Assembly (NCBI GenBank): GCA_964402955.1
Contig: CAYOEZ010000001.1
Location: forward strand, 35,027-99,026
From: an uncultured Ktedonobacterales bacterium
GTDB lineage: Bacteria; Chloroflexota; DTOL01; DAOUCN01
DNA length: 64,000 nucleotides
Direction of reading: 5' to 3'
Positions 8,242 through 54,422 of the stretch are shown here, one piece after another. The translations under genes and the position numbers were made by a program. Every line of letters starts with the position of its first letter. The stretch's first letter is position 1. The notes beneath the pieces were generated by a model. It did not search any database and had not been told where the DNA came from. It saw only the letters and a list, made by a program, of their open reading frames with translations.

Positions 8242-11208
8242 ATGCTTAATCGCCTCTTCTCGCGCGATCCTCTTCGTGACCATATCGCCCAGCTTGAGTC
8301 TGAGATGCTGTCGTGGATCGGCGACGTGTGGCGTGACGTTGCGCATGACCTGATCTTCCGCATCCCGGATCGGTTCGACGTGATCACCCGGCCCAACGAT
8401 CCCCTCTATCCCTACGTCAGCCAGAGCATTGCCAGGCTGCGTTCGCTCCGGCCCGATGCAGAGCTGAGCGTCATGGCTGCCGATATGCTCTTCAACCCGA
8501 CCGTCTGGCATCCCCGCTACGGCGACCGCAACTACGCCCAGCGGGAAATGCTGTACACTCTCGTGAGTTGCGCCATCACCATTCCACCGCCCAATATCTG
8601 CCGTCGCCTACGCGCGCGTATCGAGCAGTTCCTCATCCATCCCAAGGATCACGCCGAGATCACGAAGGGCATGAAAGTCACCTTCCCATCGTGGCGCGTC
8701 TTCTGGCCGCCCGAGCTGGAGGACTGCCTGGACATCCTCAAGACGCTGCCGGTGACGAGCGATAGCCTCGACCTCATGGAGGACATCGTCCTTGGGCGAT
8801 TGGATTCGCCTGTCACGGAGAATCCGGAGAACTGGCAGGGGAACCGCGGGCTGACCTCGTACTCGCCATCCTCCATATCGGTGTATACTTATGTCTTCGG
8901 AGACGAGCTGGCGCGTGAGTATTCCTGGATGATGACGCGCCTGTTTGACCACGGACGCCTGGATGTGAATGCTTTCTGTACTGCCGCCCAACACAATCCT
9001 CGCGTGCTCGGTTACGCGCGCCAGCCGCTGCAGGAGACAGGCAGACCTGACTTCTTCCAGCGCGACACCGGCCCGGCCTTGAGCGCTGTGCTGCCCGACT
9101 ACTGCGATCATGTATCGTGGCTGGCTGCCCAGAACCTGAGCGAAGACAACTGTAAGCAGATCAAAGAGCTTGCCTGGCTGCGCGGCGGCCGCTTCCTGGT
9201 ACAGGCGGCGCGCTGCCACAGCGAGCGCAAGATGGGCAAGCTGGTGTATGGAGAGGATATTCGCTGGCGCGAAGACCTTGAGGCCGCTGTCATTCACATG
9301 GCGAACGTGTTCGTGCGCGAGCCTGAATCGGCCCAGGAACGGCTCGACCTTGTCGCGCAACTGAGCGCATTTCCGCGCGACACGATGCGTTATCTGCTGC
9401 CTGTTGCTCCCAATGGCCACGATCTGCTGTGCGAAGCCTTGGGCTGGCAAGCCGCTATCCCACTGGCTGCGGCGCTCAGCCGCGAGCAGGTCGACGAGGA
9501 GCACCTGCCCGATGTGCTGGCCGTGCGGCAGGCTCTCGAGCAGGCCGGCGACAAGATCGCCAAGGACATGATTGGCCTGTTCCGCGGCGCGCACGTCCAT
9601 TCTGCGCGGCTGCCCTTCTTTGAGGCCATCGCTGGCTGGAATCGCACCCGCGTCGAGCAGGGCTTGCCCAAGCGCAATCAGATGTCGGTGCGTGCCCTGG
9701 GTCTCCTGCCGCTGCAGCGCGGCGACGCCGAGGTGTTGGAGCGCTACACCTTCCTGATGCGTTTTGCCAAGGAGAGCAAGCAGTTCGGCGCGCAACGCCA
9801 GGCCAGCGAGCAGGCAGCCGCAGAGGCCGGGCTGTCCCATCTGGCACAGACAGCCGGCTATGCAGACCCGACGCGCCTGGAGTGGGCGATGGAGGCCCGC
9901 CTGGGCGGTCAAAACGCTGCGCCTGGGCGGATCTGGAGCATCGGCGACTATGAGGTGTCACTCACGCTCCCTGCGCTCGATCCGGAACTGATCTTCCGGC
10001 GCGGTGACCGGACTCTCACCTCCGCGCCCGAAGCCGTCCGGCAAAATGAGGCCTACGCTGAGATCAAAGAGGCGGTTGCTGTTGTGCGCAACCAAATCAG
10101 CCGCGTGCGTACGACATTCGAAGAGATAATGGCCACTGAGCAGAGCCTGAGCGGCGAGGACCTGAGCAGCATCGCGGCCATACCAGCAGCCAATGCTCTT
10201 CTGCGGCGGCTGATCCTGCGCAGTGAGCGCGGCGAGCTTGGCTTGCTCGACCCTGTTGGCAGCGCGCTAATCACGCTTGACGGGGCGACTGTGCCGCTTG
10301 GGGAAGGCGTTTCGATCGCCCATAGTTACCATCTGTTCGAAAGCGGCCAGCTTGCCGGTTGGCAGCGCGCCGTCGTGCACCAGCGTATCATCCAGCCCTT
10401 CAAGCAGGCCTTCCGCGAGCTATATGTTGTGACGCCTGCCGAAGAGGAGACCGTCAGCTTCTCCAACCGTTTTGCCGGCCACGTCCTTGACCCGCGCATC
10501 GCCAATCGCCTGTTCCAGGCAAGGCGGTGGAGCATGTTCCAACTGGACAACACTGTGCCGTACAAAGTCTTTGCGCAGGCCGGCATTGTCGCCGAGTTTC
10601 TCTTTCCAGACGCGGGGCACTTTCTGGCCGAAACGGACGTCATTACCAGCGACCAGGTGTATTTCGCACCGTGGAGCGGCGGCGCGCCGGACCTGCCGTG
10701 GTCGCTGCCAGGGAGCAGGCCGGCATACCATGAGCGATGGGGGGAGCTAGATGAGGGGCGCATCCCTCTCAACCGCATCCCGCCGCTGATTTTCTCCGAG
10801 GTGATGCGTGACGCCGATCTCATTGTTTCTGTCGCGCGGACGGCCGACGAGGCATTGACGTCGCAGGAGACATTCGTCCGTCGCGGCGAGCTTGTTGCTG
10901 CCCTTGTGGAGGATCTCGGCTTGCCTGGGGTGACTGTTGAGGGCCACTTCGCCCATGTGCAGGGCCGGCGCGCCCGCTACCGCGTGCACTTAGGCAGCGC
11001 TGCCATTCATATCGAACCGGGGCACTATCTGTGTGTTGTCCCGGACCGCAAAGCGCAGACAGGTGAAAAGCTGTTTCTGCCATTCGCTGACGCGCACGAT
11101 AGCAAGGTGAGTGAGGTTATCAGCAAGATCCTGCTCCTGGCAAACGACCAGGCGATCAAAGATCCCACCATCCTACGCCAGATTGAGGCTCATCGCGCCA
11201 CGCCCTGA
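8242..11208 (+). CDS. large uncharacterized protein (988 aa), probably DUF4132/MolR-YehI-like
   Basis: The ATG is 3 nt after the preceding stop. C-terminal motifs IIQPFKQAFRELYVVT, IPPLIFSEVMRDADLIVSVA, YLCVVPD...LFLPFAD and SKILLLANDQAIKDPTILRQI resemble DUF4132-family proteins from memory. No HMM search was possible. Confidence 0.6.
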   Translation: MLNRLFSRDPLRDHIAQLESEMLSWIGDVWRDVAHDLIFRIPDRFDVITRPNDPLYPYVSQSIARLRSLRPDAELSVMAADMLFNPTVWHPRYGDRNYAQREMLYTLVSCAITIPPPNICRRLRARIEQFLIHPKDHAEITKGMKVTFPSWRVFWPPELEDCLDILKTLPVTSDSLDLMEDIVLGRLDSPVTENPENWQGNRGLTSYSPSSISVYTYVFGDELAREYSWMMTRLFDHGRLDVNAFCTAAQHNPRVLGYARQPLQETGRPDFFQRDTGPALSAVLPDYCDHVSWLAAQNLSEDNCKQIKELAWLRGGRFLVQAARCHSERKMGKLVYGEDIRWREDLEAAVIHMANVFVREPESAQERLDLVAQLSAFPRDTMRYLLPVAPNGHDLLCEALGWQAAIPLAAALSREQVDEEHLPDVLAVRQALEQAGDKIAKDMIGLFRGAHVHSARLPFFEAIAGWNRTRVEQGLPKRNQMSVRALGLLPLQRGDAEVLERYTFLMRFAKESKQFGAQRQASEQAAAEAGLSHLAQTAGYADPTRLEWAMEARLGGQNAAPGRIWSIGDYEVSLTLPALDPELIFRRGDRTLTSAPEAVRQNEAYAEIKEAVAVVRNQISRVRTTFEEIMATEQSLSGEDLSSIAAIPAANALLRRLILRSERGELGLLDPVGSALITLDGATVPLGEGVSIAHSYHLFESGQLAGWQRAVVHQRIIQPFKQAFRELYVVTPAEEETVSFSNRFAGHVLDPRIANRLFQARRWSMFQLDNTVPYKVFAQAGIVAEFLFPDAGHFLAETDVITSDQVYFAPWSGGAPDLPWSLPGSRPAYHERWGELDEGRIPLNRIPPLIFSEVMRDADLIVSVARTADEALTSQETFVRRGELVAALVEDLGLPGVTVEGHFAHVQGRRARYRVHLGSAAIHIEPGHYLCVVPDRKAQTGEKLFLPFADAHDSKVSEVISKILLLANDQAIKDPTILRQIEAHRATP

Positions 11209-12329: not shown

Positions 12330-12857
12330 CTAATTGAGTGTAAGCGGCAGGAACAGCATGGTCGGGTTGGCGATGTCGGTCACGATGACCGTGCCGGTCA
12401 TGCCAAACGAGCCGTGCGGCCTGCAATAATACGCGTAGTCGCCCGCCACGGTGAATGTGTGCTCGTAGACCGAACCGGCAACAGAGGTCGGATTGGCGCT
12501 GCAGTTCTGGTCGTCGGGAGAGCAGAACAAGCCATCAGGGTTTCCGGGGACGCCGCTCGTCACCGTGTGCTCACCGGCTGCCCACACCCAGCGCACCGAG
12601 CTGCCAATGGGGATGATGACCATATCAGGCGAGAACGTCGCGCCCCCTTCTCCCACGGTTACCGTAACAACACTCGCGCTCTGTAGCATGTTGGTGGGCC
12701 GCGCCGCGCTGTCATTGACAGTGCCATCCTCGGTCATGGCGTGCATGTCTGCGCCAGGCGTGGCTGCCAACGTCAGCCGCGAGCCACCCATGAGCGCCAG
12801 CGCCACCGTGAGGATGGCGACGCCAACGAACGCTGTCACCTTGCACAATCTGTTCAT
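12330..12857 (-). CDS. exported type-1 (blue) copper protein, plastocyanin/halocyanin-like cupredoxin
   Basis: The start at MNRLCKVTAFVGVAILTVALALMGG is a signal peptide preceded by a GGGAG RBS. The copper ligand pattern is a His in WAAGEHTV plus YYCRPHGSFGM (C-x2-H-x4-M). The longer track start at 12962 overlaps the promoter. Confidence 0.8.
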   Translation of the reverse strand: MNRLCKVTAFVGVAILTVALALMGGSRLTLAATPGADMHAMTEDGTVNDSAARPTNMLQSASVVTVTVGEGGATFSPDMVIIPIGSSVRWVWAAGEHTVTSGVPGNPDGLFCSPDDQNCSANPTSVAGSVYEHTFTVAGDYAYYCRPHGSFGMTGTVIVTDIANPTMLFLPLTLN

Positions 12858-12933
12858 CCCAAGCTCCCTTGCGCGTCTGCGCTCGCTACCGTGCGCTGAT
12901 TGCCTTGAATCAATATATAACTGCGATAGTAAT

Positions 12934-12962
12934 GTTATACTCCAAACGACTGGCTGTGTCAA
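12934..12962 (-). promoter_or_regulatory. sigma70-type promoter for the cupredoxin gene
   Basis: The minus strand reads TTGACA (12962-12957), a 17-nt spacer, then TATAAC (12939-12934). Confidence 0.5.
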
Positions 12963-13105
12963 GCGATCTCGGAATCTAGTCCAGCCTGTCGATGAGTGCT
13001 GTCAACTCCGCAATCGAGTGCACGGTGTAGGCCGGCGTCTCCTCGGCGCTCTGTGGCGTGCTGCGGCGGCGATCGTTCCCGTGCAGGAAGACAGAGATCA
13101 CTGTG

Positions 13106-13831
13106 TCATCTCCCCAGATAGTCTTTGATGGCTCGCTCCAGACCGCGCGCGTCGTTCCAGTCCTGGCGCGTCACGATGCGCCCGTCCATCCCGATCAGAA
13201 ACGCGTTGTTTGGCAGGCGGCCATAGGTACACCAGAGCGGGTTGTCCATCTCGTCCACGAGCACGGGCATCGTGATCTTTGCTTCCGCAATCGTCTTGGC
13301 GGCGACGGCCACCCTTTCCTCGTAGAGCCGGGCTTGGGTAACAGGCGTGCCCCTGGCGTCGCGGCTGAACTGGGCCGGGTTCTGCTCGATTGGGTGCGCT
13401 TCTTTAGTGTAGATGGTAATGAAGGAAACCATATCGCTGTATCTCTGATAGAGGTCGTTGTTGCCAGCACACTGCTGGCGGAAGGGCGGTCAAGTAAATG
13501 AACCAAAGATCATGATCACCGGCTTCTCAGCCAGCAACGTCGAGAGCGTCCATGCCTTGCCCTTCGTGTCCTTGAGCGTGAAGTCGACGGCCAGTTGCCC
13601 GGGCGTCAGCGGCCGCGTGGCAAATGACTGAAACTGGTCGCAGCGGCGCGCCAGAGTGCTGGACGGCTCCAGTCGTGGCGGCGCCGGCGTCGGCGTGAAC
13701 GTGACCGTTGGCGTCAGCGCTGCTGTGGGCGTTGCCGCCGGCGTGGGGGCCGTGGGCGCGGCCGATCGGCAGGCCGGCAGCATGGCCAGTGCAAGAAGGA
13801 GAAGACAGGACGCCAGTCGTCGTCGCGTCAT
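13106..13831 (-). CDS. deiodinase-like thioredoxin-fold lipoprotein, probable selenoprotein (in-frame UGA at 13490-13492)
   Basis: Track ORFs 13490-13831 and 13106-13432 share one frame and are separated only by a TGA. Read-through gives FGSFT-U-PPFRQQC...ITIYTKEAHP, which is the deiodinase family active-site motif. The N-terminus is a lipoprotein signal (LALAMLPAC) followed by a Thr/Pro linker. Confidence 0.75.
13463..13479 (-). promoter_or_regulatory. candidate bacterial SECIS hairpin
   Basis: The minus strand reads UGA, then 10 nt (CCGCCCUUCC), then GCCAGCA-GUG-UGCUGGC. This is a perfect 7-bp stem with a 3-nt loop that begins with G. Confidence 0.65.
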
Positions 13832-13856
13832 GGAGAGAGCGCACCCCCGCGTCTAC

Positions 13857-13885
13857 ATTCTACCACCTCATGTCGCTGCTGGCAA
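13857..13885 (-). promoter_or_regulatory. sigma70-type promoter for the selenoprotein gene
   Basis: The minus strand reads TTGCCA (13885-13880), a 17-nt spacer, then TAGAAT (13862-13857). It lies about 25 nt upstream of the ATG at 13831. Confidence 0.5.
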
Positions 13886-14285
13886 CAGGGTGCATCCAAT
13901 ACCCGTTTTTGATTAGGCCCGTTGTGGCAGGCGAACGCGCCGATGAACAGTATTACCGCGTTGGTCTTGGCCCCCTGCACCCGCTAGCTCACCCTATCCC
14001 CAGCCGCTCCTGGAAGCGCATCACCTTCATCGTGACGCACTGGGCGCAGATTGTGCGCGCCTGGGATGTGAGCGACCTGCTGGAGGAGAATGCGCTGGAA
14101 CGAGGGCTTTGGAGTGCTCTGGATAAGCTACGGGCAGTGCGGGATGAGGAAGAGGAGTGGTGAGCAGGGAGTAGGGTGTTCTGCTCACGACCAAATCAGA
14201 CAAACGGGCCATGAATTCAGGTGAGGGTCTCGTCCTTGCCAGAATCTCTCCGGAGGGAGTATACTGATGACCAGGGAGGAGCAGG

Positions 14286-15765: not shown

Positions 15766-17127
15766 ATGCATGTCTGGCCCCATACCCAGCGTCTGGCTGA
15801 GTACTCAGCCAGCTTCACGTTCCACGATCTGCCTCAGCGGGCAGTCGAGCTGACCAAGCCGCTCGTCTTGGATACCTTGGGTGCGCTCTTTGCCGCCTGG
15901 CCCGACCGCCACCCCGTCGCCCGTCTTCTTGGTGACTATGTGGAGCAGATGGGTGGCGCCCCGGAATGTACGGTCTTAGGCCGTGACTTCAAGGCCCCTG
16001 CCGCCAATGCTGCCCTGGTCAATGGGACGATGGGCTATGCGGCGGATATTGAAGGCGGCGGGTTTGCCCGTATGCACGCGGCGGCCGTCTTTGTCCCCAC
16101 AGTATTGGTTATGGGTGAACGGCAAAACCTCAGCGGCAAGGACGTCATTGCCGCACTGGCTTTGGCCTATGATATCTCCGGCAGGGTCAGCGAAGCCAAT
16201 CGCACCAGCTCACCTTATCCCCACTCGTTCCACCCTTCGGCTGTCTTTGGTACCTTTGGCGCCGCTGCCGTCGCTGGTTATGCCTTGCATTTGGATGCAG
16301 ACCGATTCGTCAACTGCTACGGCCTGGCCGGGAACGTTGCCTCCGGGTTGATTGCCTGGGTGGACGACCCGACCGAGCATTCCCGCTCCTATGGCATCGG
16401 GGTCGCTGCACACAATGGCGTCAATGCCGGTCTATTGGCCGAGCGCGGCTTCGGCGGCCCGCGTGGCATCTTCGATCCAATGAAGTACAACATCTTTGAC
16501 GCCTTCTCGGGTGAGGCTCACCTGGAGGAGTTAAGCCGAGATTTGGGGAAAGAGTACTACATCGAGCGGGCCGACGGTTACAAGCAGTATCCCTGCTGTG
16601 GCGACATTCACTCTGGGCTTGATGCGCTGCTGGCTATTCTCGCCGAGCAGAATGTGCGCCCCCAGGAGATTGCCCAAATTACCCATATGGTCAAGCCCGG
16701 CCGGGCACAAATCATAGACAACAACCCATTGCGTTCCCACTGCTCGCAGTACATTCTGGCCGTCGCAGCGGTCGAGCATCAAATCCGTTGGGATGACTTC
16801 CTCCACGACCGGCGGGCTGAACCAGCCATTGGCACCGTTGCTGCCAAAACCCGGCTGATCGCCGCCCCGGAGCTTGAGACATCCCCTGCGGCTGCTCCAG
16901 CCATCGTTGAAATCACGACAAATGATGGACGAATCTTCCGTAAGCGCGTCGACTTCGCCAAGGGGCGCAGCCAGAACCCACTGACGCAGGCGGAACTTGA
17001 GCAGAAATTCGTCCGCCTGTCTGCGCCTGCGATAGGAGAGCCGCGCTGCGCCGAGATCATGGCTCTCGTCAAACAACTGGATAGCATTGCGAATGTTCGC
17101 CAACTTATCGAGCTCATGCATCGCTGA
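15766..17127 (+). CDS. MmgE/PrpD-family protein (paralog 1)
   Basis: 453 aa. Conserved blocks LDTLGA, NGTMGYAADIEG, HPSAVFG and YPCCGDIHSG are shared with the two other paralogs in the window. Confidence 0.9.
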   Translation: MHVWPHTQRLAEYSASFTFHDLPQRAVELTKPLVLDTLGALFAAWPDRHPVARLLGDYVEQMGGAPECTVLGRDFKAPAANAALVNGTMGYAADIEGGGFARMHAAAVFVPTVLVMGERQNLSGKDVIAALALAYDISGRVSEANRTSSPYPHSFHPSAVFGTFGAAAVAGYALHLDADRFVNCYGLAGNVASGLIAWVDDPTEHSRSYGIGVAAHNGVNAGLLAERGFGGPRGIFDPMKYNIFDAFSGEAHLEELSRDLGKEYYIERADGYKQYPCCGDIHSGLDALLAILAEQNVRPQEIAQITHMVKPGRAQIIDNNPLRSHCSQYILAVAAVEHQIRWDDFLHDRRAEPAIGTVAAKTRLIAAPELETSPAAAPAIVEITTNDGRIFRKRVDFAKGRSQNPLTQAELEQKFVRLSAPAIGEPRCAEIMALVKQLDSIANVRQLIELMHR

Positions 17128-20039: not shown

Positions 20040-21563
20040 ATGTCTGGAGACAAGAAGCTCAGCCGGCGCGATATGCTGCGCATGGCTGCAGCAGCAACCG
20101 TTGGCACGCTGGCAGCAGCCTGCGGAGCAGCGGCCACACCCACTCCGGCTCCGACACAGACAGCCAGAGTCATCGAGAAGCCGGTCACCCAGATCGTCAA
20201 GGAAACGCAGATCGTCAAGGAAACCCAGGTTGTCAAGGAAGTGGTGACGGCTGTTACGACGCCGCAACCCAAGGGGAACATCGTCATCTCTGTGCTCATC
20301 AGTGGCAACCTGCTCACCGAAGCCGATTCCATCGCCGAGGCCCAGCTCTTCACCGTCCATCTGATGGAGAAAAACCTCAAGCTGAACTCGAAGGGCATCA
20401 TGGCCAAGTATGAACCGTGGCCCGGCGGCGACGACTACAACAGAAAGGTACGCCTGATGACCGCATCTGGCGAGTTGAAGGATGTCGTCATCTGGGGCAA
20501 CTGGTCAAGTATCGCAGCCTACGCCAGCGACAAGGTGATACTGCCCATCGATGAACTTCTGAAGCTGAAGGGCATCCAGGAAAGCGAGTGGACGCCAGCT
20601 TCGATGAAGCTGTGCAAATACGATGCCAAGAGCGCTACGCCCTTTGTTGGGGAGCTCTATGCGTTACCAAACATGGCCAACCCTGGCGCCGCTTTCCTCT
20701 TCACCAACGCCGACGTGATCGCTGCGGCCGGCGCGACCCTTCCCAAAGATGGCATGACCTTGATAGACCTGGAGGCCATCGCCACGAAGGCGACCAATCC
20801 GGCCAAGGGTATCTTTGGCATGAACATCAACCTGTGGAGCACGACCCATGGCTTGGGCTGAGACTTTGGCTACGTCGCACCCTTTGGCGGCAGAGTCCTG
20901 GACGATGCCGGCAAGAAGTGCCTCATCAACTCCGAAGAGTGCGTGGCGGCCTGGAAGTGGATGCGCGATATCCACCATGTCAAGAAGATCGCACCGACTC
21001 CTGCCGATATCAAGGCCATGGGCGACTACAAGCAGGGCACGGAAAACGGCAAACTGGCCATCTACAAGATGGGCGCCTGGGGCGCGAGTTGGTTCCTGAT
21101 GCGGGCCAAGAACGAGAAGCCCAAGATGGAGTTCTGTGTCGCTCCGGACCGGTACGATGTTGGCACCAAGAATGCCCTGCGCGGCAATGATCTGGGGGTC
21201 AACTGGTACGGGATCTCTGCCAACGCCAAGAACAAGGCGGAATGCATGGATGTCCTGTATGCCTTCAATGACAAGGCGGCAGGCATCTTCTCGAACCAAG
21301 TTGGCATCACGCTACCGATGCCACGGCCCGATGTGCTGAGCGATCCCTCCACAGCCAAGGTGCCGATCATCGCGGCTGCTGCCACCGCTGTGCTCGGCGC
21401 TGCCGTCCTTCCGCCAGCGGCCAACGGGCGAAGCGGCGAGATCAACACTCTGCTCGGACAGCGCTTTGGCCCTGTTGACACCGGCGAACAAGTGCCAGAC
21501 AAGGCATTCCTGGATAAGCTGGCAGCGGAAATCCAGAAGATCCTCGATATGCCCAAGGCCTAG
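20040..21563 (+). pseudogene. ABC transporter substrate-binding protein (family 1, sugar-type) interrupted by in-frame TGA at 20859-20861
   Basis: Track ORFs 20040-20861 and 20943-21563 are in the same frame. The sequence reads through as ...STTHGLG-stop-DFGYVAPFGGRVLDDAGKK.... A Tat-like signal with lipobox is present (SRRDMLRMAAAATVGTLAAAC). The TGA sits where a Trp (TGG) is plausible. Confidence 0.7.
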
Positions 21564-21716
21564 CCTGGTCCATGTGTCATGCTGGGCAGGAGAGCGCAAA
21601 CCCGGCAAACCTGCCCAGCAGCGTGCGTCCGATGTGCGGGGTGGAGGGGCATCTTCGCAGGGCCCCCCGCCCCGCACGGCTACCTGTGCGCCGTGTGCGC
21701 ACGAGGAGGCGTTACC

Positions 21717-22673
21717 ATGAGTACGTCAATTATCGCCCATGGCCAGGTCACGCCGGCTCCCAGGCGGCGATTCAAGATGACGAACCAGATGAGGGAGGAG
21801 ATCGGCGGGCTGATCTGGACCTCTCCCTGGTGGGCCGGCGTTCTGGTGTTCAGCATATACCCCATGATTGCTGGTCTCTACTACTCATTCAATCGAGCCA
21901 CTTTGACTGGCCTGACTGAGTGGGTGGGTCTACAAAACTACATCGAGATATTGACGAAGGATGACCTCTTTTGGCCGTCCGTTGGGCGTACGTTCTATTA
22001 CGCCTTCGCTGTGGTGCCGCTAACTATGGCAGCGTCCCTCTTGGCTGCCTCGGTCCTGAATCAGGGAATAGTCGGCCAGAACTTCTTTCGCACGATCTTC
22101 TACATACCGACACTGATGCCAACGGTGGGTCTTGTTGTCATCTGGGCCTGGATCCTGAACCCCAAGGTTGGCCTAGTCAACTGGTTCCTCAGCCTGTTTG
22201 GCATCCAGGGGCCCACCTGGCTTATGTCGACAACCTGGGCTATGCCGTCGCTGTTTCTGATGGCAGGTTGGGGCGCCTTTGGCGGCAACGCCATGATCAT
22301 CTATCTGTCGTCCATGCAGAGTGTCCCGAAGGAGCTCTACGAGGCCTGCGAGATAGACGGCGGCAAGCCCTGGGATAAGTTCTTCAATGTTACCATGCCC
22401 ATGATCTCCCCGGCCATCGTGTTCAATTTGCTGCTGGGGATCATGGGCGCCATGCAGAGCTTCCTCTTCCAATTCCTCGCGCCAGAACCTCCAGGCGGTC
22501 CAAACTACGCCACGTACACATTGGGCCTGCACATGTACGTGCGCGGCTTCGAGAATGGCCGCATGGGCTATGCAAGCGCCCTGGCATGGCTCATGTTCGT
22601 TATAGTCTTTGTCCTGGTCGCGATCAACTACAAACTGTCCGGACGGTGGAGCGCAATAGGATCGGAGGGATAG
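21717..22673 (+). CDS. ABC transporter permease (MalF/UgpA-like)
   Basis: The ATG at 21717 follows GAGGAGG. Six TM segments and an EAA loop LYEACEIDGGKPWDKFFNVTMPMISP. Confidence 0.85.
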   Translation: MSTSIIAHGQVTPAPRRRFKMTNQMREEIGGLIWTSPWWAGVLVFSIYPMIAGLYYSFNRATLTGLTEWVGLQNYIEILTKDDLFWPSVGRTFYYAFAVVPLTMAASLLAASVLNQGIVGQNFFRTIFYIPTLMPTVGLVVIWAWILNPKVGLVNWFLSLFGIQGPTWLMSTTWAMPSLFLMAGWGAFGGNAMIIYLSSMQSVPKELYEACEIDGGKPWDKFFNVTMPMISPAIVFNLLLGIMGAMQSFLFQFLAPEPPGGPNYATYTLGLHMYVRGFENGRMGYASALAWLMFVIVFVLVAINYKLSGRWSAIGSEG

Positions 22674-22676
22674 GCC

Positions 22677-23600
22677 ATGACACTGCAGTCACTCTTTTCA
22701 AACAAACCTGGGGCTCTGCAAGGCAGGGAGACGCGGCACAACTGGCAGGAGCGGCTCAGGCATGTTCCACTGCGCGGGGCCATCTATCTCGTTGCCATCG
22801 CTATCGCGATCCTATCGCTCATTCCCGTGCTGTGGACACTGTCAACGTCGCTGAAGATGGGCGGCCAGGTGACAAAGCTGCCGCCAGACTTCATTCCCAA
22901 CCCCCTATACTGGGCCAACTATTCGGCTGTTTTGAATGGGATGGGTAACGTCCTGCCATTTACGCGCTGGGTGACCAACACGCTAACCATCGTTGGGGCG
23001 AATGTCTTCGGCGAGGTCTTCTTCGCTGCCGTTGCCGGCTATGGCTTTGCCCGCTTTCGCTTCCGGCTTCGGGAAGCCTTCATTCTCACCATGTTTGCCA
23101 ACGCCATCGTGCCGGGCATGATCAAGATGCTGCCGCAATACATGATGTTCGCCTCCTGGCACTGGACGAACACCTATCTCCCGCTGATCATACCGAACTG
23201 GTTCGGTGGCATGTTTCTGACGTTCCTGTTCCGGCAGTACTTCCTGACCATCCCGCGCTCGCTGGATGAGTCAGCCAAGATTGACGGCGCCACCAACCTG
23301 CAGATCTTCTTCAGAATCATCCTGCCTCTGTCGCGGCCTATCCTGGCTACGGCGGCAGTGATGGTCTACATGTTTAACTGGGACAACTTCCTCGGCCCCT
23401 TCATCTATGTGCATTCCATAGAGAAGTACACGCTGGCAGTGGGCCTGCAATTCTTCAGGCAAAGCGGGTATGGGGGCACGACCAAGGAGCCGCTGATGGC
23501 CGCCTACACCATCCTGATGGCGGCGCCCGTTATCCTGGCCTTCTTCCTGTTCCAGAGGTACTTCGTGCAGGGCATCCAGTTGTCGGCCTCCAAAGAGTAG
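22677..23600 (+). CDS. ABC transporter permease (MalG/UgpE-like)
   Basis: EAA loop SLDESAKIDGATNLQIFFRIILPLSRP. Starts 4 nt after the preceding gene. No ATPase gene is adjacent. Confidence 0.9.
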   Translation: MTLQSLFSNKPGALQGRETRHNWQERLRHVPLRGAIYLVAIAIAILSLIPVLWTLSTSLKMGGQVTKLPPDFIPNPLYWANYSAVLNGMGNVLPFTRWVTNTLTIVGANVFGEVFFAAVAGYGFARFRFRLREAFILTMFANAIVPGMIKMLPQYMMFASWHWTNTYLPLIIPNWFGGMFLTFLFRQYFLTIPRSLDESAKIDGATNLQIFFRIILPLSRPILATAAVMVYMFNWDNFLGPFIYVHSIEKYTLAVGLQFFRQSGYGGTTKEPLMAAYTILMAAPVILAFFLFQRYFVQGIQLSASKE

Positions 23601-26508: not shown

Positions 26509-27993
26509 ATGGCTGGTGAGATACTCTACATCCACCCTTCGAAGATCGCCGTCGCGACTAAGGATTATTCCCAGATCGGAGTAGCCAGCCCATACGCGCT
26601 CATGCCCGTTGGCGTCATCGGTCTGGTGAACCTGCTGCGGGGGGCTGGCTTTGATGTGCAAGGGTTGAACTATCCGATCGAGGTCATCATTGATCGTTCT
26701 TTTGATCTGAAGAACTGGCTCAGGGCCCGTTCTGATGCCCGTCTGATCCTTATTGATCTGCACTGGTACGAGCACACTTTCGGCGCGTTCGATGTTGCCA
26801 GCCTTTGCAAGGCGACTCTGCCGCAGGCCTACATCGCCATGGGAGGCTTGACCGCTTCGATCTATGCCAAGGAGCTTCTGCGTCACTTCCGCGAGGTTGA
26901 CTACGTCATCCAGGGCGATGCGGAGGAGCCACTGCTGGCGCTGGCGCGCTTGGTCTGCCGGGGCGAAGGTGATCTAGCCAACATCCCTAATCTGGGCTAC
27001 CGGGACCACCGCGCGGTGAGACTGAACAAGCGCACCTACTGTGCCACGGCCGACGATCTGGACCGCCTGGACTTTGTGGACCTGTCGTTCTTGAGCCACG
27101 AGCGTGACTACGCTGAGATGCAGTATGCGAGTTCGGAGTGGGAGTCATCTGACCGGCGTGGGCACTGGCTGTGCAACGGGCGGGGCTGCTTCTACAACTG
27201 CGCCTTCTGCGGTGGCGGCGCCAACGTGCATCGCTCAATTGCCGGGCGGCAGGGTATCATCGCACGCTCGCCCGAGGTTGTCGTGCACGATATGGAACGC
27301 CTCGCCGAGCGGGGTGTTCAACAAATATCCCCCACCCTCGATCCGGCTATTATGGGTGAGGCCTACTGGCGAGCGCTTTTCAGCAGGATGCGCGAACACC
27401 GGGTGCGCATGGGCCTCAACATCGAGCATTTCCAGTTGCCCAGCATGGAGTTCTTCACTGCCTTCCTGGAGTCAGCCGATCTGGATCATTCGGAACTGGT
27501 TTTCTCGCCACTCTCTGGCTCGGAGCGCGTGCGCGCTCTCAACGGCAAGACCTATTCGAATCAAGCCTTGCTTGAGGCGCTCAGCTTCCTTGCGGCGCAC
27601 GAGGTTCCTGTGTACATCTACTTCTCGCTCAACCTGCCGGGAGAAACGATGCGTACTCTCGACGAGACCCTGACCCTGGCTCGCCGAATCTGCGATCTCT
27701 ATCCACCGCGGAAACTGCGGATGGCCAACATGTGCCACACGGTGGATCCAGCGTCACCGCTGGCTCAGCGACCTCGCGAGTACCAGGTCAGGGTGCAGTT
27801 CGATTCCTTGCTGGACTACTATGAGTATTGCCGGCAAACGCCGACGATTCAGCAGGGCGTCAGACTGGAAGCGTGGCGGGGTTTCCGTGCCCTGGACTAT
27901 CAGGCGCAACCGCTGGACCTCATGGCGCAACGCTGGGATCAATTCTGCAAGGGTCAGGCTGCGACCTGCAATCCTGTGCTGCGGGCATGGTAG
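26509..27993 (+). CDS. B12-binding-domain radical SAM protein (class B)
   Basis: The N-terminal Rossmann-like region (LMPVGVIGLVNLL...IDLHWYEH...AMGGLTAS) is typical of a cobalamin-binding domain. The radical SAM cluster motif is GRGCFYNCAFCGG (CX3CX2C). Confidence 0.85.
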   Translation: MAGEILYIHPSKIAVATKDYSQIGVASPYALMPVGVIGLVNLLRGAGFDVQGLNYPIEVIIDRSFDLKNWLRARSDARLILIDLHWYEHTFGAFDVASLCKATLPQAYIAMGGLTASIYAKELLRHFREVDYVIQGDAEEPLLALARLVCRGEGDLANIPNLGYRDHRAVRLNKRTYCATADDLDRLDFVDLSFLSHERDYAEMQYASSEWESSDRRGHWLCNGRGCFYNCAFCGGGANVHRSIAGRQGIIARSPEVVVHDMERLAERGVQQISPTLDPAIMGEAYWRALFSRMREHRVRMGLNIEHFQLPSMEFFTAFLESADLDHSELVFSPLSGSERVRALNGKTYSNQALLEALSFLAAHEVPVYIYFSLNLPGETMRTLDETLTLARRICDLYPPRKLRMANMCHTVDPASPLAQRPREYQVRVQFDSLLDYYEYCRQTPTIQQGVRLEAWRGFRALDYQAQPLDLMAQRWDQFCKGQAATCNPVLRAW

Positions 27994-31016: not shown

Positions 31017-32090
31017 ATGCTTGATATAGTCGCCAAACCAGACTGGGAAGGGCTACTGCGCAACCTGCGGCGAGAAGGGACTCCGCAGCGGGTCTACCAC
31101 ATGGAGCTTTTTCTCGACGTGGAGGTGCGTGAGGCGCTGCAGGAGCGTTTCGGGTTGGCCGATGGCTTGGACCGCGCCGATCCGTACTACGCACACAAGG
31201 CGCTCATCGCCCTGTACCGCTTCCTGGGCTACGACATGCTGCGGCCGCCCGTGGGAGGCCTGAGCATCTCTGCTCTGCACAAAGCGGTGGCAGATACCGC
31301 GGTATTGCCCAAGGCAGGCGGCCGCGGCTTCCGCGACGATGCCCACGGGCCAATCGCATCGTGGCAAGACTTTGAGCGCTACCCCTGGCCCGATCCAGCC
31401 AGGTTCGACACTCGGGTGCTGGAGTGGTACGCGGCCAACACGCCTGACGACATGTGCCTGGCAGGCAGTTGCCACCAGGTGTTCGACTACACGTGTGCCC
31501 TCATGGGTTTGCAGGGGCTATGCTTTGCGCTGTATGAGCAGCCGGATCTGGTTGATGCGGTCATCGAGCGGGTGGGCAGCCTCCTGTTGGCGGCCGCTCA
31601 GGTTTATCTGCAGTGCGATCGCGTCAAGGCGCTCTTTGACGGTGACGATCTGGGACACCGTACGGCCACCCTGGTCAGCCCAAAGGTACTGATAGACAAG
31701 GTTTTGCCCTGGCACAAGAAGATTGCTGCTCTGGCCCACGAGCACGGCGCCCTGTACCTGCTGCACTCCTGCGGCAACATCGCAGCCATCATGCCGGCGC
31801 TGATCGAGGATGTGCAGATTGACGGACGGCACTCGTTCGAGGATGCCATCGAGCCGGTGACGGAGGCCAAGCGGCGCTGGGGCGACCGCCTGGCGCTCAT
31901 CGGCGGCCTCGATGTGGATTTTCTGACCAGGGCCACGCCGCAGCAGGTGCGGCAGCGGGTGCGCGAGACTTTAGATGTGTGCATGCCAGGCGGCGGCTAC
32001 TGCCTGGGCAGCGGCAACAGCGTGACCAACTACATTCCGTTGCACAATTATCTGGCCATGGTGGACGAAGGCCGGCGCTACACGGCATAA
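31017..32090 (+). CDS. uroporphyrinogen decarboxylase (URO-D)/MtaA-like family protein
   Basis: C-terminal blocks LLHSCGNI...IGGLDVDFL..GTPQQVRQRVRETL...GGGYCLGSGNSV are typical of URO-D-fold methyltransferase/decarboxylase proteins. Confidence 0.8.
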   Translation: MLDIVAKPDWEGLLRNLRREGTPQRVYHMELFLDVEVREALQERFGLADGLDRADPYYAHKALIALYRFLGYDMLRPPVGGLSISALHKAVADTAVLPKAGGRGFRDDAHGPIASWQDFERYPWPDPARFDTRVLEWYAANTPDDMCLAGSCHQVFDYTCALMGLQGLCFALYEQPDLVDAVIERVGSLLLAAAQVYLQCDRVKALFDGDDLGHRTATLVSPKVLIDKVLPWHKKIAALAHEHGALYLLHSCGNIAAIMPALIEDVQIDGRHSFEDAIEPVTEAKRRWGDRLALIGGLDVDFLTRATPQQVRQRVRETLDVCMPGGGYCLGSGNSVTNYIPLHNYLAMVDEGRRYTA

Positions 32091-32117
32091 TCAAGTAACA
32101 TTCGGAGGCGAGATACG

Positions 32118-33275
32118 ATGACGGCAATGACGTCCAAAGACCGACTCCTGGCCGCTATCAGACATAAAGAGGCAGATCGAGTGCCGGTGGCTCCGCGCAT
32201 GCACCTGTGGGCAGCAGAGCAGTACAAGTCATACGATTGGCCCATGCAATTGCGGCTCTTCGGGGAGTTCGGCTGCGACGCGCTGGTGGATGTGGACTAC
32301 AATCTGCCCTCCTATGTGCCCTACGTCTTCTCCGGCGACTACCGGGATCTGGACCGGGTCTCCGTGGACTTGACGATCGAGAACAATGGCGAGGCCAACC
32401 TGATCAAGCGTCGCTTTCACACGCCCGCCGGCGACCTCACCGACCAGATTCTGCAAGGGCATCCCTGGAGCGGGCACGGCATCAGCCCCAGTCCAACCGT
32501 CCAGGAGCCGCTGGTCAAGAGTCTCAAGGACGTGGAGAAGATACCCTTCATCTTGCCCGACCCGGATACCTGCAGGAGCAATGTGTGGCCGGAGATCATC
32601 AAGATCATCGGCAACCGGGGGCTGCTACAGGTGCACCCACGCGGCATGCTCAGCGGCATGACCGCCTTCCTGGGCATGTCTGAGTGCATGATGGCCTTCT
32701 ATGATGATCGTGAGATGTTCGACAGCTTGCTGCGGGTCTTGGCCGAGCACTACCAGAAGATGACGCGGCGCATCCTGGAATGGGGCGCGGAGATTGTCTT
32801 CAGCAGTTGGCACAACTTCGGCGTCAGTTCCGGCTGGTCGCCCCATATCTTCCGTGAGGCATTCATGCCGGTGATCAAGGACCACATAGACCTGGTGCAC
32901 TCCTACGGCGCGCTCTACAACTACTTTGACAATGGCAAGGTCATGCCCATCATCGAGGACATCGGCAGCCTGGGCCCGGACATCATCTCGTCCCTGTGCC
33001 CGCCCACGGTGGGCGACGTCGATCTGGCACAGGTGAAACAACTGATCGGTGACCGTGTCTGTCTACACGGCAATGTGGATGCCATCCTGGTCGTGCAGCA
33101 AGGCACGCCGGCGCAGGTCCGAGACGCCGTGCGCGAGGCCATCCGCATTGGCGCGCCGGGTGGAGGGTTCATCCTGGGCAACAGCGACGCCTTCTTCATG
33201 GACACGCCGCGCCAGAACATCGAGGCGTTCTTCGCCGCAGCAAAGGAATTCGGCGCCTATCCGATCAAACTGTAG
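32118..33275 (+). CDS. URO-D/MtaA-like family protein
   Basis: Contains KEADRVPVAP, LHGNVDAILVVQQGTPAQVRDAVREAI and GGGFILGNSDAF. Confidence 0.8.
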   Translation: MTAMTSKDRLLAAIRHKEADRVPVAPRMHLWAAEQYKSYDWPMQLRLFGEFGCDALVDVDYNLPSYVPYVFSGDYRDLDRVSVDLTIENNGEANLIKRRFHTPAGDLTDQILQGHPWSGHGISPSPTVQEPLVKSLKDVEKIPFILPDPDTCRSNVWPEIIKIIGNRGLLQVHPRGMLSGMTAFLGMSECMMAFYDDREMFDSLLRVLAEHYQKMTRRILEWGAEIVFSSWHNFGVSSGWSPHIFREAFMPVIKDHIDLVHSYGALYNYFDNGKVMPIIEDIGSLGPDIISSLCPPTVGDVDLAQVKQLIGDRVCLHGNVDAILVVQQGTPAQVRDAVREAIRIGAPGGGFILGNSDAFFMDTPRQNIEAFFAAAKEFGAYPIKL

Positions 33276-53082: not shown

Positions 53083-53157
53083 CGTTTCCGGCCAGGACGT
53101 GCACACAGAGAGCAGTGATGGCCGCCATCTGATCGGCAGCGACATGCACATATCATG

Positions 53158-53867
53158 CTAATGCTGGGCCACAAAGGCTAGGACGCGCGATTCAAAAGCG
53201 TCCCCATCCAGCCGGGGTATACCATGAGCGGCGTTGGGAATCAGCCACAGTGCGGCCCCTGGAATGGCGCGGGCAATCCCCTCGGCATGGTCAGGGCCAA
53301 CGAACTCATCGTGCATGCCCTGCGTAACCAGGGTTGGGCAGTGAATGCGGCCCAGGTCAGGCCGTACAGCGAGATCGGCGCCGGCCAGCCAGCGGTTGAA
53401 CCAGGCGATGGCGCGCTTGTAGTTGCGCGAGCCCATGCGCTCCTCATGCTCGCGCAGGCTGACCATGTGCGCATATATGCCGCGCAGCATGGATTCTTCA
53501 ACATGGGAGTGAGCGGCCCACAAGACAAGCAAGCGAACACGCTCCGGTCCCTCTATTGCCATCAGCAGGGCAACCGAGCCGCCATCGCTTGACCCCAGGA
53601 CGTGGGCAGGCTCAATACCAAGAGCTTCCAGGACCGCGATCTGATCCAGGGCATCCTGGCGCAGGAAGTCCGGCGCGAAGTCCGGCCGGTCGCTGGAGCG
53701 GCCGTAACCGTACCGATCGGTGGCTATGACCCGCTAGTGTGGGGCGTAGACAGGCATGGCGCTGGCCCAATCGGCGGCGGATCCGCCGCCATGAAGCAGC
53801 AACGAAACGTCGCCCTGCCTTGTTCCTCGTAGTACATGTCATAGTCACGTATATGCACAAATGGCAT
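53158..53867 (-). pseudogene. alpha/beta hydrolase pseudogene (paralog of 30173-30898)
   Basis: Begins MPFVHIRDYDMYYEEQG (compare MPFVRVHDYDMYYEDQG in the intact paralog) after AAGGAG. There is a frameshift near 53811-53820 and an in-frame TAG at 53734-53736 (APH-stop-RVIATDRYGYGRS). The GSSDGG elbow is retained. Confidence 0.8.
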
Positions 53868-54250: not shown

Positions 54251-54422
54251 TGTCATGTGCCCACTGCAAAAAGGTCATCAGACTTCGCCTGGTGGGGAGA
54301 CGGCATCAAAACGACGTGCCTTGGATGCCATTTCGGCCCTAATGAGGCTATTTCGGGTCACTAAATGGGGCAAATGCTCAGTTCGATCGACCATTTGACC
54401 TTCTTGCAGTGGGCACGTGTCA
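54251..54422. repeat. 172-bp inverted-repeat (MITE-like) element
   Basis: Arms tgtcatgtgcccactgcaaaaaggtca (54251-54277) and tgaccttcttgcagtgggcacgtgtca (54396-54422) are complementary at 24 of 27 positions. The element lies in non-coding DNA. Confidence 0.5.

What the first reader, a model, noticed from the sequence alone, without database searches (positions are those of the whole stretch)
13106..13831. Exported deiodinase-like selenoprotein: in-frame UGA in an FGSFT-U-PPF motif with a SECIS-like hairpin 10 nt downstream
The minus-strand ORFs 13490-13831 and 13106-13432 are in one frame, and the only interruption is the TGA at 13490-13492. Reading through gives ...KPVIMIFGSFT-U-PPFRQQCAGNNDLYQRYSDMVSFITIYTKEAHP.... 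That is the FGSxTUPPF active-site motif plus the downstream YIxEAHP block of the iodothyronine-deiodinase branch of the thioredoxin fold, with the UGA exactly where animal deiodinases carry Sec. Ten nt after the UGA lies a perfect 17-nt hairpin, GCCAGCA-GUG-UGCUGGC (13463-13479). As I recall it, the E. coli fdhF minimal SECIS is an upper stem-loop of about 17 nt placed about 11 nt from UGA with G in the loop, so the geometry fits. The N-terminus is a lipoprotein signal plus a Thr/Pro linker, so the enzyme would be extracytoplasmic. It has its own TTGCCA-17-TAGAAT promoter and sits directly upstream of an exported type-1 copper protein. Standard pipelines would annotate two hypothetical proteins. 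Bacterial Sec-containing deiodinase-like proteins are rare and functionally uncharacterised.
Basis: partly seen in the sequence, partly recalled or inferred. Interest (0 to 1): 0.85.

Follow-up and report, generated by a model that had tools for sequence, protein, structure and literature searches.

The report
Selenocysteine deiodinase-like lipoprotein gene
The two short "hypothetical" ORFs are one gene for a surface-anchored, deiodinase-like redox enzyme whose catalytic residue is selenocysteine. It is a genuine but already recognised kind of bacterial selenoprotein, and its substrate is still unknown.

Summary

- **One gene.** Minus-strand 13831-13106 is a single 241-codon gene interrupted only by TGA 13492-13490.
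- **Family.** The read-through protein passes Pfam T4_deiodinase (52.8 bits, cut-off 27). The UGA aligns with the Sec/Cys of mouse Dio2 and Dio3.
- **Conservation.** The same codon is TGA in 54 of 69 homologous loci and Cys in 12. These are mostly Anaerolineales and Dehalococcoidia.
- **SECIS.** The hairpin 10 nt downstream is conserved in register. 91.7% of cells pair, 6 of 7 pairs show compensatory changes, and the first loop G is invariant at a codon third position. It meets all four published bacterial SECIS constraints.
- **Translation past the UGA.** Sequence downstream of the UGA is under purifying selection (dN/dS 0.13).
- **Not an error.** The locus is 100% identical in two independent assemblies.
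- **Sec machinery.** One homologue lies directly after a Sec-containing selD.

Sec machinery could not be checked for this genome. The closest relatives carry Ser (TCN) instead of Sec, and the cupredoxin adjacency is not conserved. Bacterial deiodinase-like selenoproteins have been known since 2005, so this is a new member of a known, functionally uncharacterised kind.

The parts
13857..13885 (-). Sigma-70-like promoter match, TTGCCA-17 nt-TAGAAT with TG before the -10
   Evidence: 10 of 12 matches. This is a consensus match only, not shown to function.
13106..13831 (-). Complete selenoprotein gene: 241 codons including Sec114, plus the stop codon at 13106-13108
   Evidence: Homologues are single polypeptides. 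dN/dS downstream of the UGA is 0.13 against L002.
13769..13831 (-). Signal peptide with lipobox L-P-A-C (residues 1-21; Cys21 is the predicted lipid anchor)
   Evidence: Read from the sequence. Ala20 and Cys21 are at least 90% conserved in alignment A2. A lipobox is found in 41 of 60 N-complete homologues.
13652..13768 (-). Thr/Pro/Ala-rich flexible linker (residues 22-60)
   Evidence: The equivalent region of the AlphaFold2 model has pLDDT below 50.
13109..13651 (-). Deiodinase-type thioredoxin/peroxiredoxin-fold catalytic domain (residues 61-241)
   Evidence: PF00837 scores 52.8 bits against a cut-off of 27. Dio2 9h48 matches at E=2e-10 and Dio3 4tr3 at E=1.7e-8. The fold search hits ResA/TlpA-type proteins and Dio2/Dio3.
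13490..13492 (-). UGA codon 114, read as selenocysteine in the T-U-P-P-F motif
   Evidence: The codon is TGA in 54 of 69 homologous loci and TGC/TGT in 12. It aligns to the catalytic Sec-to-Cys position of Dio2 and Dio3.
13463..13479 (-). Bacterial SECIS hairpin: 7-bp stem GCCAGCA/UGCUGGC with loop GUG, 10 nt after the UGA
   Evidence: 91.7% of cells pair, 6 of 7 pairs have compensatory changes, 0 of 500 shuffles reach the observed values, and loop G21 is invariant in 48 sequences.
13469..13471 (-). Cys121 codon (U-x6-C), the candidate resolving cysteine; its T and G form part of the SECIS loop
   Evidence: Cys in 44 of 49 Sec forms. It was lost independently (TCT, AGC, GCT) in the Ser-type relatives.
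13394..13396 (-). His146 codon of the E-A-H-P block, equivalent to Dio2 His162
   Evidence: His in 49 of 49 Sec forms. It is Asn or Arg in most Ser-type relatives. Its role in Dio is taken from PMC11592359.
12976..13101 (-). Remnant of the C-terminus of a HAD-family hydrolase gene. It marks a deletion next to the selenoprotein gene and is not part of the gene
   Evidence: tblastn gives 54-59% identity to the 3' end of the HAD gene that follows the homologue in L084, L086 and L087.

Best explanation
Minus-strand 13831-13106 is one gene for a membrane-anchored, extracytoplasmic lipoprotein. Its catalytic domain is a deiodinase-type thioredoxin/peroxiredoxin fold.

Codon 114 (UGA, 13492-13490) is decoded as selenocysteine. 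The 7-bp/GUG-loop hairpin starting 10 nt downstream (13479-13463) is a bacterial SECIS. It would recruit SelB with Sec-tRNA(Sec) to the ribosome paused at the UGA. Those two steps rest on comparative evidence.

The chemistry is inferred. The selenolate of Sec114 sits at the N-terminus of helix alpha1. It lies in a network of Ser111, Thr113, Tyr141, Glu144 and His146 that matches the deiodinase proton relay. The selenolate attacks an electrophilic atom of an extracellular substrate. The resulting Se-OH or Se-X intermediate is resolved by Cys121 into a selenenylsulfide. An extracytoplasmic thiol system then re-reduces it.

The substrate is unknown. My estimates are hydroperoxide about 0.35, organohalide (true deiodinase-like dehalogenation) about 0.2, protein disulfide or sulfoxide about 0.2, and something else about 0.25.
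For: - **Single frame, single TGA**.
- **Family.** PF00837 is above its cut-off, and U aligns with the catalytic Sec-to-Cys of Dio2 and Dio3.
- **Conserved UGA.** TGA sits at the same codon in 54 of 69 homologous loci across Anaerolineales, Dehalococcoidia and one NC10 MAG. It is Cys in 12.
- **Hairpin conservation.** Among 48 distinct TGA sequences, 29 have 7 of 7 pairs and 14 have 6 of 7. Distant Cys forms have 1-3 pairs.
- **Covariation.** 91.7% of cells pair, against 24-60% for slid controls. 6 of 7 pairs show double changes, and 0 of 500 shuffles reach the observed values. The Cys and Ala codon choice covaries with the Gln/Arg identity opposite. Loop G21 is invariant although it is a codon third position.
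- **Published bacterial SECIS constraints.** All four in PMC13188914 Fig. 2 are met: a 3-nt loop starting G-U, a 7-bp stem, 17 nt from UGA to loop, and -12.0 kcal/mol.
- **Translation past the UGA.** Window against L002, both with TGA: dS 0.62 and dN/dS 0.13 downstream of the UGA.
- **Reproducibility.** Two independent assemblies are 100% identical over 1151 nt, including the TGA.
- **Internal negative control.** A second in-frame TGA in the window (20859) replaces a conserved Trp and is not conserved in homologues.
- **Sec machinery next to a homologue.** In L038 a Sec-containing selD (TIGR00476, 388 bits) ends 213 nt upstream of the homologue.
- **Phylum.** Dehalococcoidia are among the most selenoprotein-rich genomes (PMC13326102).
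- **Catalytic residues** are conserved in 44-49 of 49 Sec forms.
- **Lipobox**.
Against: - No selA, selB, selD or tRNA-Sec lies in the 64-kb window, and the rest of the genome could not be read.
- The hairpin alone is not statistically exceptional in a single sequence.
- A 3-nt loop is the minimum the bacterial SECIS model allows.
- The eight closest relatives (62-84% identity) have Ser (TCA, TCG or TCT), not Sec or Cys. In a neighbour-joining tree the window and L002 nest inside that Ser clade. A TCA-to-TGA change therefore cannot be excluded by parsimony.
- No neighbour is conserved across loci, so nothing constrains the substrate.
- The deiodinase residues His182, Trp167 and the distal Cys are not conserved.
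Confidence: 0.88

Rival explanations
1. Pseudogene. The window's lineage descends from the Ser-type (TCA) clade, and a single C-to-G change created a nonsense TGA. Translation would stop at residue 113.
For: The closest relatives carry TCA, TCG or TCT at this codon. The window and L002 nest within them in a neighbour-joining tree. The window demonstrably contains another gene broken by a TGG-to-TGA change.
Against: Window and L002 both carry TGA and have diverged to dS 0.62, yet dN/dS is 0.13 downstream of it. The hairpin is intact (7 of 7 and 6 of 7 pairs) where Ser forms have 4-6 of 7. Cys121 and His146 are retained, but most Ser forms have lost them, through independent changes at Cys121. 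The G15-C29 to C15-G29 swap, which includes an Ala-to-Gly replacement, keeps the stem paired.
Confidence: 0.05
2. The UGA is passed without selenocysteine, for example by near-cognate Trp or Cys insertion or general leaky termination. The hairpin would be a by-product of the R-Q-Q-C-A-G coding sequence.
For: Sec machinery was not seen for this genome. Close Cys forms (L012, L031, L033, L057) also keep 6-7 pairs, so part of the pairing could be inherited coding sequence.
Against: Synonymous sites covary with the opposite arm, and the wobble G21 is invariant. Distant Cys forms have no hairpin. The UGA sits exactly on the catalytic residue, where only Sec or Cys gives an active enzyme. selD is adjacent in L038.
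Confidence: 0.04
3. Two independent small genes, or an assembly or sequencing error at the TGA.
For: Gene callers list two ORFs.
Against: Every Cys or Ser homologue is one polypeptide spanning both halves. The second ORF would start inside strand beta2 of the fold. The sequence is identical in assemblies of two separate runs. TGA is shared by 54 loci.
Confidence: 0.01
4. Functional rival: the protein is a genuine reductive dehalogenase of organo-iodine or organo-bromine compounds at the cell surface. It would use the same Se-halogen chemistry as animal deiodinases, rather than acting as a peroxidase or thiol oxidoreductase.
For: The motif T-U-P-P-F is identical to that of animal deiodinases. 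The relay residues Ser, Thr, Tyr, Glu and His are conserved in 47-49 of 49 Sec forms (roles from PMC11592359). An insertion of deiodinase-like length follows beta2. The hosts are mostly Dehalococcoidia and Anaerolineales, many with names pointing to marine or anoxic sources.
Against: The equivalents of His182, Trp167 and the substrate-clamp region are not conserved. No rdh or halogen-related neighbours were found. The fold search ranks ResA/TlpA-type thiol-disulfide oxidoreductases at least as high as Dio2 and Dio3. No bacterial homologue has ever been assayed.
Confidence: 0.2

Closest known systems
Bacterial 'deiodinase-like protein' selenoprotein family (Zhang, Fomenko and Gladyshev 2005, Sargasso Sea, PMC1088965; listed in PMC9312934 and PMC13188914)
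   Same: It is a PF00837 domain with an in-frame UGA at the catalytic position. A bacterial SECIS lies directly downstream with a G in a small apical loop. Cys-containing homologues exist, and the function is unknown.
   Different: The reviews give the motif of their representative as UxxC, whereas this clade is U-P-P-F with the nearest Cys at +7. This clade consists of lipoproteins from Chloroflexota rather than sequences from marine surface plankton. No sequence comparison with the published representatives was possible here.
Animal iodothyronine deiodinases Dio1-3 (structures 4TR3 and 9H48)
   Same: The FGSxT-U-PPF motif and the xEAHP block are shared. Ser, Thr, Tyr, Glu and His of the proposed proton relay are present. 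An N-terminal Prx-like beta-hairpin is present, and an insertion of about 28 residues follows beta2. Both are membrane-tethered through the N-terminus.
   Different: This protein uses a lipid anchor outside the cell instead of a transmembrane helix in the ER or plasma membrane. Its SECIS lies inside the ORF rather than in the 3'UTR. The equivalents of His182, Trp167 and the distal Cys205/239 are absent. The family has its own Cys64, Cys121 and Cys201. Thyroid hormones are not expected substrates.
Extracytoplasmic membrane-anchored thioredoxin-like reductases (ResA, TlpA/DsbE, pneumococcal Etrx lipoproteins)
   Same: These are the best Foldseek matches (E about 1e-9, target TM 0.81-0.86). They share the thioredoxin fold, the anchoring on the outer face of the membrane, and the redox residue at the N-terminus of helix alpha1.
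   Different: Those proteins use a CxxC dithiol. This protein has a single Sec with no vicinal Cys and carries the deiodinase insertion. At sequence level only weak AhpC-TSA and Redoxin matches are found.
NCBIfam NF038285 'deiodinase family protein' and NF041057 'Rcas_1661 family thioredoxin-like (seleno)lipoprotein'
   Same: NF038285 aligns over the catalytic domain at 119.6 bits. NF041057 shows that Chloroflexota seleno-lipoproteins with a thioredoxin fold are already recognised by curators.
   Different: Both score below their curated cut-offs (119.6 against 250, and 13.2 against 190). The 347-position NF038285 model has about 175 N-terminal positions with no counterpart here.

Membership tests
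Pfam PF00837 T4_deiodinase | Whole-protein score at or above the gathering cut-off (27 bits) | tested here: met
   52.8 bits, E=4.4e-14, residues 100-219 on profile positions 100-213. The same family is precomputed for homologues P0001-P0014.
Bacterial selenoprotein gene (general criteria, PMC13188914) | In-frame UGA aligned with Cys in homologues (a Cys/Sec pair) | tested here: met
   TGC or TGT at the same codon in 12 loci and in P0009, P0010, P0012, P0014, P0018 and P0019.
Bacterial selenoprotein gene (general criteria, PMC13188914) | UGA-containing homologues in other organisms, with conserved sequence on both sides of the UGA | tested here: met
   54 of 69 loci carry TGA. dN/dS downstream of the UGA is 0.13.
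Bacterial selenoprotein gene (general criteria, PMC13188914) | Bacterial SECIS: 3-9 nt apical loop, 4-16 bp stem, G in the first two loop positions, 16-37 nt from UGA to loop, MFE at or below -7.5 kcal/mol | tested here: met
   Loop GUG, 7-bp stem, 17 nt spacing, -12.0 kcal/mol. Covariation supports the stem.
Bacterial selenoprotein gene (general criteria, PMC13188914) | selA, selB, selC and selD present in the same genome | not testable with these tools
   None is in the 64-kb window. The only indirect support is a Sec-containing selD adjacent to the homologue in L038.
Iodothyronine deiodinases (animal Dio1-3) | Catalytic Sec in FGS(A/C)T-U-PPF at the start of helix alpha1 | tested here: met
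   FGSFT-U-PPF aligns to FGSATCPPF of Dio2 and FGSCTCPPF of Dio3, both crystallised as Sec-to-Cys mutants.
Iodothyronine deiodinases (animal Dio1-3) | Proton-relay and substrate residues (Dio2 numbering Ser127, Thr129, Tyr157, Glu160, His162, His182, plus Trp167; PMC11592359) | tested here: inconclusive
   Ser111, Thr113, Tyr141, Glu144 and His146 are conserved in 47-49 of 49 Sec forms. The positions aligned to His182 and Trp167 are Ala/Pro and Asn. Five of seven residues are kept.
Iodothyronine deiodinases (animal Dio1-3) | Deiodinase-specific insertion (loop-D) between beta2 and alpha2, and an N-terminal Prx-like beta-hairpin | tested here: met
   The stretch aligns to Dio2 with a single one-residue gap. 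The AlphaFold2 model of the 84%-identical P0002 shows two N-terminal strands and a 28-residue, partly low-confidence loop after beta2. Dio2 9h48 gives the longest aligned span in the fold search, 184 columns at query TM 0.57.
Iodothyronine deiodinases (animal Dio1-3) | Distal resolving Cys (Dio2 Cys205, called the distal Cys in PMC11592359; I take Dio3 Cys239 as its counterpart from memory) | tested here: not met
   The aligned position is Met188, which is Met or Val in the family. The family instead conserves Cys121, Cys64 and Cys201.
Iodothyronine deiodinases (animal Dio1-3) | Reductive deiodination activity | not testable with these tools
NCBIfam NF038285 deiodinase family protein | Score at or above the curated cut-off (250 bits) | tested here: not met
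   119.6 bits, covering model positions 179-323 of 347 only.
Bacterial lipoprotein | Signal peptide ending in a lipobox [LVI][ASTVI][GAS]-C | tested here: inconclusive
   The window has L-P-A-C after RRR and a 12-residue hydrophobic core. Pro at position -2 is atypical, but it recurs in L002, L003, L009 and L043. A lipobox-like site is found in 41 of 60 homologues by my own pattern. No dedicated predictor was available.

The most novel reading that the evidence does not exclude
The Chloroflexota U-P-P-F lipoproteins are cofactor-free, selenium-dependent reductive dehalogenases acting on organo-iodine or organo-bromine compounds outside the cell. That would make them the bacterial counterpart, and possibly the ancestor, of thyroid-hormone deiodinase chemistry. 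It would also be a second dehalogenation system, independent of B12, in Dehalococcoidia and Anaerolineae.
Probability: 0.15. Interest if true: 0.85.

Novelty: new member of a known kind. Interest (0 to 1): 0.4.

Why it matters
This corrects a mis-annotation: two "hypothetical proteins" are one selenoenzyme. It also adds a well-supported Sec-using, surface-anchored clade to a family for which I found no assay of any bacterial member.

The clade offers three things for experiments:

- a compact SECIS supported by covariation;
- natural Sec, Cys and Ser variants at the catalytic position;
- conservation of the deiodinase relay residues.

Together these make the long-open question of what bacterial deiodinase homologues do directly testable. 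The candidate activities are peroxidase, thiol reductase and dehalogenase.

Tried and rejected
- **Rfam and ARAGORN on the window.** Rfam at gathering thresholds and ARAGORN found nothing: no tRNA-Sec and no curated RNA family.
- **Pfam on 40 window ORFs.** No selA, selB or selD was found.
- **ARAGORN on 37 related loci.** No tRNA-Sec was found.
- **Cupredoxin link.** The copper protein has no match in any of the 87 loci held at that point. In the closest relatives a HAD hydrolase occupies that position, and the window keeps only a 41-codon remnant of it. The link is rejected.
- **Conserved neighbours.** Clustering the flanking ORFs of all loci found no family shared by more than 4 loci. The one family shared by 4 loci occurred only among distant Cys-form loci. 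Pfam on 20 immediate neighbours gave unrelated functions, apart from selD in L038.
- **Other ORFs in L038.** The ORFs upstream of selD have no NCBIfam match at E<=1e-5, so they are not SelA or SelB.
- **Other selenoprotein genes in the window.** A scan for in-frame TGA found only the substrate-binding protein gene, where the TGA replaces a conserved Trp.
- **Technical dead ends.** The first alignment (A1) was too diverse for locus retrieval. DNA for P0008 could not be fetched.
Full report
**Observation.** On the minus strand, ORFs 13831-13490 and 13432-13106 share a frame, and the only interruption is TGA at 13492-13490. Read-through gives a 241-residue protein with four parts:
- an N-terminal signal ending in L-P-A-C;
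- a Thr/Pro/Ala-rich linker;
- the motif ...KPVIMIFGSFT-U-PPFRQQCAGNN...;
- the block ...IYTKEAHP... .

Ten nucleotides after the UGA lies the perfect hairpin GCCAGCA-GUG-UGCUGGC (13479-13463). It is the only element in the minimum-energy fold of the 48 nt after the UGA, at -12.0 kcal/mol. Taken alone this is only mildly unusual. The 71-nt region has z = -1.26 against shuffles, and 0.86% of all TGA triplets in the window are followed by a comparable hairpin. The promoter-like TTGCCA-17-TAGAAT site is there.

**What the protein is.** With Cys substituted for U, the protein passes Pfam T4_deiodinase at 52.8 bits against a cut-off of 27. It matches the catalytic cores of mouse Dio2 (9h48, E=2e-10) and Dio3 (4tr3, E=1.7e-8), with U on the catalytic Sec-to-Cys position. 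It scores 119.6 bits on NCBIfam NF038285 "deiodinase family protein". That is below the cut-off of 250 and covers only the C-terminal half of the model.

An AlphaFold2 model of the 84%-identical relative P0002 has mean pLDDT 78. It shows a thioredoxin fold with two extra N-terminal strands and a 28-residue loop after beta2. Foldseek places it among extracytoplasmic thiol-disulfide oxidoreductases (ResA, TlpA/DsbE, Etrx lipoproteins) and Dio2/Dio3. Dio2 gives the longest aligned span.

**Is the UGA a selenocysteine codon?** Homologues were retrieved from GTDB genomes and from metagenomes.
- **Codon identity.** Across 69 loci carrying the motif, the codon is TGA in 54, TGC or TGT in 12, Ser in 2 and TGG in 1. 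Fourteen of the 15 genome loci have TGA. They are Anaerolineales, Dehalococcoidia, other Chloroflexota, one NC10 MAG and two MAGs labelled only "uncultured bacterium".
- **Earlier "Trp" calls.** Protein P0011, listed with Trp at this position, has TGA in its DNA. Its listed sequence was presumably translated with a code that reads TGA as Trp. P0013 also shows Trp, but I did not check its DNA.
- **Selection downstream.** The window and L002 both carry TGA and have diverged to dS 0.62. dN/dS is 0.13 downstream of the UGA and 0.10 upstream, so the 3' half is translated.
- **Reproducibility.** Window 12900-14050 is 100% identical in Logan assemblies of two different runs, SRR13723393 and SRR13723397. 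This rules out a random assembly or sequencing error.
- **Gene calls.** Gene callers split the locus into 97-aa and 108-aa ORFs.

**The SECIS.** In 48 distinct TGA sequences aligned without gaps, the helix occupies columns 14-20 and 24-30.
- 91.7% of cells form standard pairs, against 24-60% when the 3' arm is slid.
- 6 of 7 pairs show compensatory double changes, and 0 of 500 shuffles reach any observed measure.
- The covariation links non-synonymous sites to synonymous ones. CAG opposite GCU or UGU alternates with CGG opposite GCC or UGC.
- The first loop base, G21, is invariant although it is a codon third position.
- Distant Cys homologues (about 35% identity) have only 1-3 of 7 pairs.
- Four close Cys forms keep 6-7 pairs, which I read as recently converted genes that retain a fossil element.

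The hairpin meets all four constraints of the published bacterial SECIS model: loop of 3-9 nt, stem of 4-16 bp, G in the first two loop positions, 16-37 nt from UGA to loop, and MFE at or below -7.5 kcal/mol (PMC13188914, Fig. 2 legend). Here the loop is 3 nt starting G-U, the stem is 7 bp, and the spacing is 17 nt.

**An internal control.** The window holds a second in-frame TGA at 20859-20861, in an ABC-transporter substrate-binding lipoprotein gene. There the homologues all have Trp (HGLG-W-DFGY), none has TGA, and no G-loop hairpin follows. That one is a TGG-to-TGA nonsense change, or an error. The contrast shows what a non-Sec TGA looks like in this same sequence.

**Sec machinery.** None lies in the window, and I could not read the rest of the genome. 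Two pieces of indirect support exist.
- In metagenome contig L038, a selD gene ends 213 nt upstream of the homologue on the same strand. It scores 388 bits on TIGR00476 (cut-off 125) and 338 bits on NF002098 (cut-off 299). It carries its own in-frame UGA at G-L-G-U-G-S-K followed by a hairpin.
- Dehalococcoidia genomes are listed among the most selenoprotein-rich bacteria (PMC13326102).

**Anatomy relevant to mechanism.** Counts below are out of 49 Sec forms.

| Residue | Conserved in |
|---|---|
| Ser111 | 47 |
| Thr113 | 49 |
| Sec114 | 49 |
| Cys121 | 44 |
| Tyr141 | 49 |
| Glu144 | 48 |
| His146 | 49 |
| Arg173 | 49 |
| Cys64 | 46 |
| Cys201 | 47 |

Ser, Thr, Tyr, Glu and His correspond to Dio2 Ser127, Thr129, Tyr157, Glu160 and His162 of the proposed proton relay (PMC11592359). 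The equivalents of His182, Trp167 and the distal Cys205 are not conserved.

Cys64 and Cys201 persist even in the Ser-type relatives, so I infer a structural disulfide. Cys121 and His146 decay once Sec is replaced. Cys121 is therefore my candidate for the resolving thiol.

A signal peptide plus lipobox is found in 41 of 60 N-complete homologues. The enzyme is thus tethered to the outer face of the membrane.

**Evolutionary oddity.** The eight closest relatives (62-84% identity) have Ser at the Sec position, encoded TCA, TCG or TCT.
- All but P0004 (locus L086) have lost His146, to Asn or Arg.
- Cys121 has been lost independently through TCT, AGC and GCT codons.
- Their hairpins are weakened to 4-6 of 7 pairs.

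In a neighbour-joining tree the window and L002 nest within this clade. Either Sec-to-Ser occurred several times, or the window lineage changed TCA back to TGA. In both cases the present gene has an intact hairpin, intact catalytic residues and purifying selection downstream. I therefore put the pseudogene reading at about 5%.

**Context.** The downstream plastocyanin/azurin-family gene (PF00127) has no counterpart in any of the 87 loci held at that point. In the closest relatives a HAD hydrolase follows the gene, and the window retains only its last 41 codons (12976-13101). The PfkB kinase beyond it is syntenic. No neighbour recurs across the family apart from the single selD case. Context therefore says nothing about the substrate.

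**Comparison with what is known.** Bacterial Sec-containing and Cys-containing deiodinase-like proteins with bacterial SECIS elements were reported from the Sargasso Sea in 2005. The authors suggested a redox role unrelated to thyroid hormones (PMC1088965). The family is listed in current reviews, with the motif given as UxxC (PMC9312934 and PMC13188914). The present clade has U-P-P-F and is a Chloroflexota lipoprotein.

A profile search of 1.84 billion cluster representatives finds 203 relatives at E<=1e-30 and 1,940 at E<=1e-10. Of the 148 best new hits, 87 of the 95 with a recognisable motif carry Cys there. Searches for any functional study of a bacterial member found none.

**Verdict.** This is a real selenoprotein gene with a real SECIS. 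It is a new member of a known, uncharacterised family, and the substrate is open. The most novel reading not excluded is a surface, selenium-dependent dehalogenase, which I put at about 0.15.

Noticed in passing
window 20040-21563 (+), TGA at 20859-20861: An ABC sugar-transporter substrate-binding lipoprotein gene lies upstream of permeases 21579-22670 and 22677-23597. It has one in-frame TGA where all homologues have a conserved Trp (HGLG-W-DFGY). This is a TGG-to-TGA nonsense mutation or an error, not Sec.
   Followed up: yes
window 12976-13101 (-): The 41-codon ORF right after the selenoprotein stop is the remnant C-terminus of a HAD-family hydrolase. That hydrolase is intact in relatives L084, L086 and L087. 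The window lineage has a deletion here, and the cupredoxin gene 12330-12962 now sits next to it, preceded by its own AT-rich TTGACA-17-TATAAC region.
   Followed up: yes
L001:809, L084:10391, L086:563, L090, L091 (closest relatives of the window gene): Sec is replaced by Ser (TCA, TCG or TCT) rather than Cys in the sister lineages. Cys121 then decays independently (TCT, AGC, GCT), and His146 is lost in all but L086. Sec-to-Ser replacement seems unusual to me, since Cys is the usual substitute. It suggests loss of redox function or a changed function.
   Followed up: partly
L038:3525-4574 (+), TGA at 3576: A selD gene is itself a selenoprotein (G-L-G-U-G-S-K with a downstream hairpin). It lies directly upstream of a Sec-type deiodinase-like gene on a metagenome contig.
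   Followed up: yes
L005:5214-5614 and L006:5233-5632: In two Anaerolineales MAGs a tmRNA gene (tag ANRTDYAALPLAA) lies a few hundred bases upstream of the deiodinase-like selenoprotein gene.
   Followed up: no
window 15766-17124, 35572-36933, 41676-43058; 31017-33272, 40379-41533; 26509-27990: The window holds three MmgE/PrpD-family genes and three URO-D-family genes. It also holds a B12-binding radical-SAM gene, several GFO/IDH/MocA oxidoreductases, xylose-isomerase-like TIM barrels, GH2 and GH95 glycosidases and two GntR/FCD regulators. Together they look like a large carbohydrate or organic-acid catabolic island.
   Followed up: no
window 53100-57300: This stretch has only short ORFs, including a 146-aa fragment of a pyridine-nucleotide-disulphide oxidoreductase (56215-56652, covering about a third of the Pfam model). 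It may be a degraded region.
   Followed up: no
window 8242-11205 (+): A 988-aa protein combines DUF5724, DUF4132 and DUF7737 domains. Its function is unknown.
   Followed up: no
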